A DNA stretch of 64,000 bases. Origin: Escherichia phage PA52. Made by a program: the position numbers. Positions 63,001-64,000 of the stretch are shown piece by piece; the first letter of the stretch is position 1, and each line of letters opens with the position of its first letter. The stretch is from the sequence record KP682392.1; one strand, written 5' to 3'.

Positions 63001-64000
63001 AGGAGTTCAGCTCTTTCATGATCGGATACAGGTGTTTGCTGAGGTCCTGGGCTTTTTCCATCCAGAGTTGCATGTAGCAGAGGAGGATGATTTCCTCGTC
63101 TGTGAATTGTTGCTGTGGTTCTGCTTGTGCCGACTGCATGTTGCGAAGTTTCTTTTCGCACTCGATGAAGTATCTGCGTATCTGTCGGCCTTTTTCGTTA
63201 CGCTCTACCATCGCCGTTTCTTTGGCTGTATCGAGGGTAAGGTGGTAGTCTTTTTTCCCTCGCCCATAACCTATTTCCCGTTTCTGGGAAATAGCTATAT
63301 AGTCCTGATTTTCAACGAATCCGTACTCTTCAATACGTTCTGTAATCCACGATGCAAAGCGTTTACCTACTCCAAGAAAAGTATGTAAATCACGGGCATT
63401 AACGAGAAGAGTGGTTTCGTTGGCGATAGTGCCGTTGAATACGGGGATGAGTTGACTGGTCATGATGACCTCCTTATTTGTTTAGTTTATAACCGCCAGT
63501 TAGTAGCTGGCGGTCGGGTGTCAACTGAGCCAAATAAGAAGCTCTGGGCATATTCCCCTTGCGGGTGTTGTATTACGCCTCTCCACCCGACCTTTGTACG
63601 GATGTAACTATGCCAAATTGCAGGCATAAAAAAGCCGCAAAGCTATCGGGTGCGGAGACCGCTTATTTGTTCAGTGCGGTCAGTATGCGATAGCTCTGGA
63701 GGATTTGTCAATCAGCGGAATATTGATGAACGGGTAACGGTAAATGCCTCATCCAGAAAATTAACGCAAATTCGCATCGCAAACTTGCGTTAATTATCTG
63801 AAATATCAAGTTAAATCCCCTTAAATGTTTGGGGCACTATTGGGGCAAAATGTGGTTGTTTGGGGCATATTTGGGGCAAAAAAGAACGTATAAAGAACGG
63901 TGTAAAATTGATTTCTTCATGGTCAAAATGAGGTGTAACAGATTGAAAAATATATGCTCTTGGACGATCTTCGGTAATTCTGTGTTTTTAATGCTTCATG

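What the first reader, a model, noticed from the sequence alone, without database searches (positions are those of the whole stretch)
63700..63900. TTGGGGCA iteron-like array and a 9-bp palindrome near the right edge
Four TTGGGGCA repeats are arranged as two tandem 23-bp units with 11-bp (one helical turn) spacing inside each unit, about 35 bp downstream of a perfect inverted repeat TTAACGCAA-N15-TTGCGTTAA. This looks like a binding-site array for an oligomeric DNA-binding protein (repressor, antirepressor control or replication initiator) of the second element. The cognate protein is probably encoded just beyond the window.
Basis: seen in the sequence. Interest (0 to 1): 0.45.

Follow-up and report, generated by a model that had tools for sequence, protein, structure and literature searches.

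The report
Stx phage attP integrase arm sites
The four TTGGGGCA repeats are almost certainly the "arm" docking sites that this Shiga-toxin phage's own integrase uses to insert the phage into the bacterial wrbA gene and cut it out again, which is a textbook kind of element that has simply never been annotated for this phage family.

Summary
TTGGGGCA occurs four times (63829, 63840, 63860, 63871; spacing 11/20/11), 35 bp from TTAACGCAA-N15-TTGCGTTAA.

The window is a 933W/Sp5-type Stx2 prophage. Its last base lies one base before the annotated att core in wrbA, so the array sits 123-172 bp inside attR, on the P arm of attP.

A second pair (TTGGGGCA-N3-CTGGGGCA) lies 71-89 bp on the other side of the core, inside the 3' end of int. 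The integrase has an N-terminal Arm-DNA-bind_2 domain.

Integrase relatives (64-80% identical, at least four different cores, unrelated flanks) keep TGGGGCA at the same spacing on both arms. A blind motif scan of viral contigs returned this attP type in 46 of 57 hits.

The repeats are therefore arm-type integrase sites. They are not replication iterons (the O-gene iterons are at 11550-11650) and not ant operators.

The palindrome is the centre of a 22-bp-arm hairpin that folds best on the minus strand. It is probably a terminator between attP and the ant promoter.

This is a known kind of element and a new, unannotated member. The 31-bp double-site unit varies in copy number among Stx phages (4, 6 or 8 sites). 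Interest is low to moderate.

The parts
63829..63836 (+). Arm-type Int site, P arm, copy 1 (TTGGGGCA)
   Evidence: Exact match. The column is invariant in an alignment of 16 diverse P arms.
63840..63847 (+). Arm-type Int site, P arm, copy 2 (TTGGGGCA), followed by a conserved A-tract
63860..63867 (+). Arm-type Int site, P arm, copy 3 (TTGGGGCA)
63871..63878 (+). Arm-type Int site, P arm, copy 4 (TTGGGGCA)
63826..63881 (+). Two copies of the 31-bp-period double-site unit. The unit is copy-number variable in relatives: 4 sites here, 6 in 933W, 8 in Min27.
63881..63899 (+). AAAGAACG-N3-AAAGAACG direct repeat (11-bp spacing) between the arm sites and the core. Candidate excisionase (DUF1233 Xis) sites.
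   Evidence: Conserved in the Fels-1-type group and replaced by another motif in the group whose Xis is only 45-50% identical. The assignment is inferred.
63936..63948 (-). Weak IHF-like match (TTTCAATCTGTTA, one mismatch to WATCAANNNNTTR)
   Evidence: This is the only match in attP, so the evidence is weak.
63955..63979 (+). Conserved attP box TGCTCTTGGACGATCTTCGGTAATT, 22-46 bp from the core. It is present in all attP groups whatever their core. The binding factor is unknown.
63994..64000 (+). Left core-type half-site region (CTTCATG) abutting the 7-bp overlap GTTTCAA. The overlap starts at base 64001, just outside the window.
   Evidence: att core annotated in AP000422 and AF125520. CATG-N7-CATG symmetry is seen in the reconstructed attP. 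The half-site assignment is inferred.
63754..63800 (-). Probably a transcription terminator or insulator between attP and the ant promoter.
   Evidence: Minus-strand RNA: -28.3 kcal/mol, z = -5.8. Plus strand: -20 kcal/mol, z = -4.7. Double substitutions in relatives preserve or extend the stem. The simple terminator scan did not call it.
63682..63711 (-). Sigma-70-like promoter (TTGACA-18-CATACT) downstream of the hairpin and upstream of ant
   Evidence: consensus match only
62834..63463 (-). ant (AntA/P22_AR_C antirepressor), the neighbouring cargo gene. Not part of the recombination site.

Best explanation
The TTGGGGCA repeats are the P-arm arm-type binding sites of attP for the phage's heterobivalent tyrosine integrase (the 933W/Sp5 Int, a Rac-type integrase).

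Proposed mechanism:
1. In the circular phage the window's right end is joined, through the 7-bp overlap GTTTCAA, to the 3' end of int.
2. That side carries two more sites, TTGGGGCA and CTGGGGCA.
3. Int's N-terminal arm domain binds these high-affinity sites. All of them lie in the same orientation, and the 11- and 31-bp spacings put them on one face of the helix.
4. Int's C-terminal domains bind the weak core sites. Bending proteins (IHF) and, for excision, Xis fold the arms back, so that Int bridges arm and core and assembles the intasome. The intasome recombines attP with attB in wrbA.
5. In the prophage the four sites end up in attR and the pair ends up in attL.

Shown here: the position relative to the annotated core, the presence of the motif on both arms, the arm domain in Int, and conservation across diverged relatives with other cores.

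Inferred: actual binding, which sites serve integration and which excision, and the roles of AAAGAACG x2 (Xis?) and of the conserved box.

The nearby palindrome is the centre of a hairpin that most likely terminates minus-strand transcripts before they reach the ant promoter. Those transcripts come from int in the circular phage and from the wrbA promoter in the lysogen. Confidence for that part is about 0.5.
For: 1. Location. The window's last 601 bases are identical to the right end of Sp5/VT2-Sakai. The annotated att core begins at the base after 64000, so the sites lie at -172 to -123 from the overlap.

2. Second arm. The attL side has TTGGGGCA and CTGGGGCA 11 bp apart, in the same orientation, at +71 to +89, inside the last codons of int. 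The two copies are read in different frames (A-P and V-P-Q), which argues for a constraint at the DNA level.

3. Joined attP. The joined sequence exists as one contiguous stretch in an assembled contig (L105).

4. Integrase. Int matches Arm-DNA-bind_2 (PF12167, E = 6e-26) plus Phage_integrase. A DUF1233 excisionase lies next to it.

5. Conservation.
- Salmonella Fels-1 has a different core but keeps four sites at the same spacing about 115-160 bp from its core, plus the pair in int.
- All Int homologs at 64-73% identity keep the 11-bp pair at the int 3' end.
- In an alignment of 16 diverse P arms, only the TGGGGCA columns, an A-tract and one box are conserved.

6. Blind test. A scan of IMG/VR for the bare motif returned 57 loci. 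Of these, 46 are this attP type with at least four different cores. Several lie at the opposite end of the same contig from an Int homolog.

7. Domain conservation. The Int arm domain (residues 1-75) is 75-80% identical across these relatives. The core-binding region is 53-72% identical, which fits shared arm sites with changed core specificity.

8. Geometry. The layout matches lambda attP as I recall it (P sites near -150 and -115, P' sites near +55 to +85). This rests on my own knowledge, not on a tool result.
Against: - No binding data exist for this integrase. I found no paper in the held library that maps these sites.
- The Pfam domain name is itself an inference from homology.
- In the related Rac prophage, the excisionase XisR shifts a 294-bp attR fragment (PMC4632033). 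That fragment presumably contains Rac's GGGGCA repeats, which lie within about 160 bp of the attR junction. That experiment therefore does not separate Xis sites from Int sites.
- The P' pair overlaps coding sequence, so part of its conservation could be at the protein level.
- Only one weak IHF-like site was found.
Confidence: 0.85

Rival explanations
1. The TTGGGGCA copies are binding sites for the excisionase (DUF1233 Xis), which would coat the P arm as a head-to-tail filament. Int arm sites would lie elsewhere.
For: - Direct repeats at about one helical turn suit winged-helix Xis filaments (lambda X1/X1.5/X2, from my own knowledge).
- XisR of Rac binds an attR fragment (PMC4632033).
- Every relative carries a homologous Xis.
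Against: - The motif is on both arms, whereas directionality-factor sites are normally on one arm.
- TGGGGCA is invariant while Xis diverges to 45-60% identity. The neighbouring AAAGAACG pair does change between groups, as expected for Xis sites.
- Distant integrases with TGGGGCA arrays on both sides of a core have a CI-like repressor ORF next to int, not a Xis.
Confidence: 0.07
2. The array, with or without the palindrome, is an operator set for a regulator of the adjacent antirepressor gene ant.
For: - It lies upstream of ant on the same intergenic stretch.
- P22-type ant genes are known to be tightly controlled (my own knowledge).
Against: - The array is about 120 bp or more upstream of the only promoter-like site and is separated from it by a strong hairpin.
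- It is conserved with att/int in Fels-1, in the Oslovirus group and in Rac-type prophages, whose neighbouring genes are different.
- A second pair lies inside int across the core.
Confidence: 0.03
3. The repeats are iterons of a replication origin, bound by a replication initiator.
For: The resemblance is only formal: short direct repeats in helical phase.
Against: - The phage has a lambdoid O/P module at 11163-13488. O has its own internal repeats (TTACCAGCA-type) at 11550-11650.
- The 933W record annotates ori iterons inside O.
- No initiator gene adjoins the array in either the prophage or the circular form.
Confidence: 0.01
4. The palindrome is a protein operator, a symmetric site for a dimeric regulator, rather than an RNA hairpin or terminator.
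For: - It has perfect 9-bp arms.
- The symmetric double substitutions seen in relatives would also preserve a symmetric protein site.
Against: - The complementarity runs over 22-nt arms with only 3 nt between them, which is far longer than typical operators.
- The G.U pairs make the minus-strand RNA markedly more stable than the plus strand (-28.3 against -20 kcal/mol).
- A U-rich tail follows on the minus strand only.
Confidence: 0.15

Closest known systems
Arm-type sites P1, P2, P'1-P'3 of bacteriophage lambda attP, bound by the N-terminal domain of lambda Int
   Same: - Short repeats, distinct from the core, lie on both arms of attP at about -170 to -120 and +70 to +90.
- Further repeats (candidate Xis sites) lie between the P-arm sites and the core.
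- The integrase has an arm domain plus a catalytic domain, and xis is adjacent.
- In the prophage the sites are split between attR and attL.
   Different: - The motif is different: TGGGGCA. As I recall it (not checked here), lambda's is C/AAGTCACTAT.
- The Pfam arm family is different: PF12167, where lambda's is PF09003.
- There are 4 + 2 sites arranged as 11-bp pairs, and the P-arm number varies (4, 6 or 8).
- The P' sites lie inside the int coding sequence.
- No biochemistry has been done.
Rac prophage IntR/XisR recombination module of E. coli K-12
   Same: - It belongs to the same integrase lineage. The 933W record describes its int as similar to the Rac and Qin integrases.
- Rac carries GGGGCA repeats at both prophage ends.
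- XisR binds the Rac attR fragment (PMC4632033).
   Different: - The Rac arm domain is only 45% identical to that of Sp5 Int.
- Its repeats are degenerate (ATGGGGCA, AAGGGGCA).
- It uses a different core, in ttcA.
- The arm sites have not been mapped there either.
Lambda tI terminator / sib retroregulator, downstream of int across attP
   Same: A long hairpin lies about 200-250 bp beyond the core on the strand that int is transcribed from. It is separated from int by integration. The U-tract is part of an outer stem that only read-through transcripts could complete (plus my own knowledge of sib).
   Different: There is no evidence here for termination or for RNase III cleavage. The simple terminator scan did not call it. 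Fels-1 has no equivalent. It may serve mainly to shield ant.

Membership tests
Arm-type integrase sites of a lambda-like (heterobivalent tyrosine integrase) attP | The sites lie in the arms that flank a crossover core, and they occur on both arms. | tested here: met
   Four sites lie at -172 to -123 and two at +71 to +89 from the annotated 7-bp core.
Arm-type integrase sites of a lambda-like (heterobivalent tyrosine integrase) attP | The cognate integrase has a separate N-terminal arm-binding domain in addition to its core-binding and catalytic domains. | tested here: met
   PF12167 Arm-DNA-bind_2 at residues 7-70 (E = 6e-26) and PF00589 at residues 202-395.
Arm-type integrase sites of a lambda-like (heterobivalent tyrosine integrase) attP | The arm motif differs from the core-type sequence and is kept when core specificity changes. 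| tested here: met
   At least four different cores share TGGGGCA arms at the same spacing. The arm domain is more conserved than the core-binding region.
Arm-type integrase sites of a lambda-like (heterobivalent tyrosine integrase) attP | Sites for accessory bending or directionality factors (IHF, Xis) lie between the arm sites and the core. | tested here: inconclusive
   There is an AAAGAACG pair, a conserved 25-bp box and one weak IHF-like match. None can be assigned to a factor.
Arm-type integrase sites of a lambda-like (heterobivalent tyrosine integrase) attP | Direct binding by the Int N-domain, and a requirement for the sites in recombination. | not testable with these tools
   This needs EMSA or footprinting and attP deletion assays. 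No published mapping was found.
Replication-origin iterons | The repeats lie within or beside the initiator gene or origin. | tested here: not met
   The O/P module and its internal repeats are at 11163-13488, about 50 kb away. The 933W ori iterons are annotated inside O.
Operator array of a transcriptional regulator (immI-like control of ant) | The sites overlap or abut the regulated promoter and travel with the regulated gene. | tested here: not met
   The array is separated from the promoter-like site by a hairpin. It is retained in relatives without ant.
Intrinsic terminator / sib-like retroregulator (for the palindrome) | A stable stem-loop followed by a U-tract on the transcribed strand. 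| tested here: inconclusive
   Minus strand: z = -5.8, with the tail UUAAUUUUCU. However, the stem base is A/U-rich and the consensus scan did not flag it.
Intrinsic terminator / sib-like retroregulator (for the palindrome) | Transcript 3' ends or RNase III cleavage at the hairpin, with an effect on int or ant expression. | not testable with these tools
   This needs Term-seq or 3'-RACE and comparisons with an rnc mutant.

The most novel reading that the evidence does not exclude
Two linked readings remain open.

1. The P-arm array is an evolvable dial. The 31-bp double-site unit expands from 2 to 3 to 4 copies among otherwise near-identical Stx phages (Sakai, 933W, Min27). This could change Int occupancy and so the balance of integration and excision, and hence Stx-phage lysogeny.

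2. The TGGGGCA pair at 11-bp spacing may be a widely shared arm-site code. It is found beside tyrosine integrases of several subfamilies and phyla, which would make attP sites predictable from sequence alone.
Probability: 0.3. Interest if true: 0.45.

Novelty: new member of a known kind. Interest (0 to 1): 0.25.

Why it matters
Arm-type sites are textbook biology, so the finding does not change any concept.

Its value is practical. It gives a precise, testable map of attP for the 933W/Sp5 family, which comprises the main Stx2a-converting phages of E. coli O157:H7. The map covers the four P-arm sites, the two P' sites inside int, the candidate Xis sites, a conserved box and the core. This stretch carries no annotation in the RefSeq records sampled.

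The map explains an otherwise puzzling repeat. It predicts which bases to mutate in order to cripple integration or excision. It also flags natural copy-number variants (4, 6 or 8 sites) that could underlie differences in lysogen stability between outbreak lineages.

The hairpin reading suggests how the prophage shields its antirepressor gene from read-through transcription out of wrbA.

Tried and rejected
- TRF on the window found nothing, because there are fewer than two 31-bp copies. It does find period 31 in Min27.
- Literature searches for 933W/Stx arm-type sites, for the motif itself and for Rac IntR/XisR sites gave no site-level mapping. The 1999 paper on the 933W genome sequence could not be retrieved under the PMC id I recalled for it.
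- The 933W ori iterons do not occur in this window. The window has the Sakai-type O gene with other repeats.
- The third, inverted 'ATGGGGCA' in int (L003 1840-1847) was rejected as an arm site. It encodes the conserved M-G-H of the catalytic domain, and it is lost at the DNA level in relatives (ATGGGCCA) while the protein motif stays.
- The IHF consensus scan gave only one match, with one mismatch. The conserved box does not fit the IHF consensus.
- BLASTP between the Sp5 arm domain and the N-terminus of the distant TGGGGCA-associated integrases is only suggestive (E = 0.027), so I make no claim of homology.
- Rfam has no family at the hairpin or the array.
- The PDB sequence search matched only catalytic-domain regions of other tyrosine recombinases (residues 125-275 of Int). 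It found no solved arm-domain relative.

Full report
**Observation.** TTGGGGCA occurs on the + strand at 63829, 63840, 63860 and 63871. TTAACGCAA (63761-63769) and TTGCGTTAA (63785-63793) are separated by 15 bases and end 35 bases before the array. The window as a whole holds 7 copies of the 8-mer against about 3.2 expected. Four same-strand copies within 50 bp are expected about 1e-9 times per window, so the cluster is not chance.

Two details need correcting. First, the repeating block is 25 nt at a 31-bp period, not 23 bp. Second, the palindrome is the perfect centre of a longer inverted repeat with 22-nt arms (63754-63775 and 63779-63800), 86% complementary, with 3 nt between them.

**Where this is.** The last 601 bases of the window are 100% identical to the right end of many Stx-converting prophages of E. 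coli O157:H7, including Sp5/VT2-Sakai. In the VT2-Sakai record the annotated attachment site begins at the base after window position 64000. In the Sakai chromosome the Sp5 feature ends exactly there, and the split host gene wrbA follows. The 933W record annotates the 7-bp attL and attR cores (GTTTCAA) at its two ends.

The window starts at the start codon of int and runs to attR. It is collinear with Sp5 at both ends, so it holds one prophage and not two elements. The array therefore lies 123-172 bp inside attR, which is the P arm of attP.

**The other arm.** On the attL side (Sakai chromosome, locus L003) the integrase gene ends 21 bp from the core. Inside its last codons lie TTGGGGCA and CTGGGGCA. 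They are 11 bp apart, in the same orientation as the four in the window, at +71 to +89 from the core. The two copies are read in different frames (Ala-Pro, and Val-Pro-Gln), which argues for a constraint on the DNA rather than on the protein. Joining the window's right end to this sequence reconstructs attP, and exactly that junction exists as one contiguous stretch in an assembled viral contig (L105).

**The protein.** Sp5 Int (436 aa) matches Pfam Arm-DNA-bind_2 at residues 7-70 (E = 6e-26) and Phage_integrase at residues 202-395. The neighbouring gene is a DUF1233 excisionase. This is the domain make-up of heterobivalent integrases, which bind arm sites with one domain and core sites with another.

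**Comparative evidence.**
- Near relatives differ by whole 31-bp units: 4 sites here, 6 in 933W, 8 in Min27, and 3 perfect sites plus one TTGGGGCG in the Oslovirus-type phages.
- Salmonella phage Fels-1 has a different core and unrelated flanks. It keeps TTGGGGCA-N3-GTGGGGCA, then TTGGGGTA-N3-TTGGGGCA, about 115-160 bp from its core. It also keeps the TTGGGGCA/CTGGGGCA pair inside its int.
- Eighty Int-homolog loci from IMG/VR were examined. The 58 that are 68-73% identical to Sp5 Int all keep an 11-bp pair of NTGGG(G/A)CA at the int 3' end. All of them carry a DUF1233 Xis that is 45-60% identical.
- As a blind test I scanned IMG/VR for the bare pattern TGGGGCA-N4-TGGGGCA-N8-18-TGGGGYA. Of the 57 loci returned, 46 are this kind of P arm. 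Their spacing is always 11, 20, 10-11. They are followed by a conserved box and then by one of at least four different cores. Several lie at the opposite end of the very contigs that carry an Int homolog, and three show an intact attP with int adjacent (L105, L121, L147).
- In an alignment of 16 diverse P arms, the only conserved columns are the four TGGGGCA sites, an A-tract after the second site, and the box TGCTCTTGGxCGxTCTTTAGTGATTTT.
- The Int arm domain is the best-conserved part of the protein: 75-80% identity against 53-72% for the core-binding region. This is what one expects if arm sites are shared while core specificity changes.
- The more distant E. coli K-12 Rac prophage (arm domain 45% identical) has degenerate GGGGCA repeats at both of its ends.

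**Mechanism.** I conclude, with about 0.85 confidence, that the TTGGGGCA copies are arm-type Int binding sites. By analogy with lambda (established knowledge), Int's N-domain binds these sites while its C-terminal domains hold the core. Bending proteins and, for excision, Xis fold the arms so that Int bridges arm and core and builds the intasome.

Position, two-arm distribution, domain content and conservation are shown here. Binding, and the division of labour among the six sites, are inferred.

The AAAGAACG-N3-AAAGAACG repeat (63881-63899) sits where lambda has its Xis sites, and it changes between groups whose Xis proteins differ. It is a reasonable Xis candidate but is unproven. The only experimental datum I found for this lineage is that Rac XisR shifts a 294-bp attR fragment (PMC4632033). 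That result does not resolve individual sites, which leaves a small probability that Xis rather than Int reads TGGGGCA.

**Rivals.**
- Replication iterons are excluded. The phage's O/P module is at 11163-13488, and O has its own internal repeats at 11550-11650. The 933W record annotates ori iterons inside O.
- An operator array for ant is unlikely. The array is separated from the only promoter-like site (63711 to 63682 on the minus strand) by a strong hairpin. It is also retained in relatives that lack ant at this position.

**The palindrome.**
- Folded as RNA, the minus strand forms a 17-bp stem extended by a 6-bp outer stem (-28.3 kcal/mol, z = -5.8), followed by UUAAUUUUCU.
- The plus strand is weaker (-20 kcal/mol, z = -4.7), because two G.U pairs become A.C mismatches.
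- Relatives show two double substitutions that keep or extend the stem: G-C to A-U, and an A.A mismatch turned into C-G. One single change weakens it.
- The hairpin lies between attP and the ant promoter. It faces transcripts that come from int in the circular phage, or from the wrbA promoter in the lysogen.
- My best reading (about 0.5) is a terminator or insulator that protects ant.
- The geometry also resembles lambda tI/sib, but nothing here tests RNase III processing. The simple terminator scan did not call the hairpin, and Fels-1 has no counterpart.

**Comparison with the known, and novelty.** This is a member of a well-known kind, the arm-type sites of a lambda-like attP. It meets every membership criterion that can be tested by sequence. 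The motif, the Pfam arm family and the 11-bp paired layout differ from lambda. I found no published mapping for the 933W/Rac lineage in the held literature. The stretch is also unannotated in the RefSeq genomes sampled; it occurs in 216 of 5426 complete E. coli genomes. I rate it 'new member of a known kind', interest 0.25.

**Beyond the finding.** Many of these are plain 11-bp tandem repeats or GC-rich DNA. In 16 loci a tyrosine-recombinase ORF was detectable, and in all 16 it lay within 600 bp of the array. These come from Propionibacteriaceae, Acidithiobacillus, Hyphomonadaceae, cyanobacteria, Bacillota and others. The integrases carry different Pfam arm domains or none that Pfam recognises.

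Metagenomic phages with unrelated integrases likewise show three TGGGGCA sites, then a core region, then a pair next to int. This may reflect a widely shared arm-site code. It may equally be a selection effect of searching for this one motif. I did not resolve which.

Noticed in passing
L004 (933W) 530-610; L005 (Min27) 530-641; L006/L008/L009; window 63826-63881: The 31-bp double-site unit varies in copy number among otherwise near-identical Stx phages. There are 4 sites in the window and Sakai, 6 in 933W, 8 in Min27, and 3 perfect sites plus one TTGGGGCG in the Oslovirus-type phages. In complete E. coli genomes, several O157:H7 strains (86-24, Xuzhou21, ATCC 43894) give split alignments, which is consistent with array-length variants.
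   Followed up: partly
window 63955-63979: The box TGCTCTTGG(A/G)CG(A/T)TCTT(T/C)(A/G)GT(G/A)ATT lies 22-46 bp from the core. It is conserved in every attP group whatever the core, and it does not fit the IHF consensus. In the largest group it contains CGTTCTTT, the reverse complement of AAAGAACG. The binding factor is unknown.
   Followed up: partly
window 63504-63592 (-): Rfam family sRNA-Xcc1 (RF02221) matches at 69 bits, above its gathering score of 53. The match lies in the leader between the promoter-like site and the ant start codon.
   Followed up: no
L003 1725-1743 (Sakai chromosome, attL side): The two P' arm sites lie inside the last codons of int and are read in two different frames (…A-P-D-V-P-Q…). 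The integrase's C-terminal tail therefore doubles as its own binding site. Relatives with TGGGACA variants have Ser in place of Pro at that position.
   Followed up: partly
L269 2470-2495 and L270 3300-3360 (E. coli K-12 Rac prophage ends): The cryptic Rac prophage of K-12 carries degenerate GGGGCA repeats at both ends: ATGGGGCA and TGGGGGCA near intR, and GGTGGCA, ATGGGGCA and AAGGGGCA x2 near attR. This is the same architecture in the model strain.
   Followed up: partly
L148-L267 (genome-contig scan); L096, L099, L100, L127, L137 (viral): Paired TGGGGCA arrays lie within 600 bp of tyrosine integrase genes in many phyla. The integrases carry different Pfam arm domains (Arm-DNA-bind_3, Arm-DNA-bind_4) or none that Pfam recognises. 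This could be a shared arm-site code or a selection effect of the search.
   Followed up: partly
window 3092-3541 and 61848-62296: A stretch of about 450 bp is 96% identical between the left and right ends of the prophage. It contains paralogous early-region-type genes on either side of attP.
   Followed up: no
window 60558-60882: There is a hok/sok-type toxin-antitoxin: a Hok-family ORF at 60558-60770 (-) and an Rfam sok match at 60708-60882 (113 bits). It is annotated as hokW/sokW in VT2-Sakai.
   Followed up: no
L003 1655-1690 (attL junction): The phage end mimics wrbA sequence past the core (GTTTCAAcATGTC against GTTTCAAtATGTC). It also supplies a new start, so that a WrbA with a substituted N-terminus (MINHILRHVET-MARAV…) could still be made. 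RefSeq marks it as a pseudogene.
   Followed up: no
L133 and L136 (IMG/VR), after ...GCTTCATGG: Two contigs carry the Sp5-type P arm, but past CTTCATGG they continue into sequence that is neither wrbA nor int. This could be a secondary integration site or a rearrangement.
   Followed up: no
L006 172-288 (Shigella phage Ss-VASD): In the Oslovirus-type phages the hairpin and the promoter-like element are retained, but ant is replaced by a short ORF (117 bp, annotated as hypothetical). The attP-proximal hairpin and promoter thus look like a fixed cassette that drives variable cargo.
   Followed up: no
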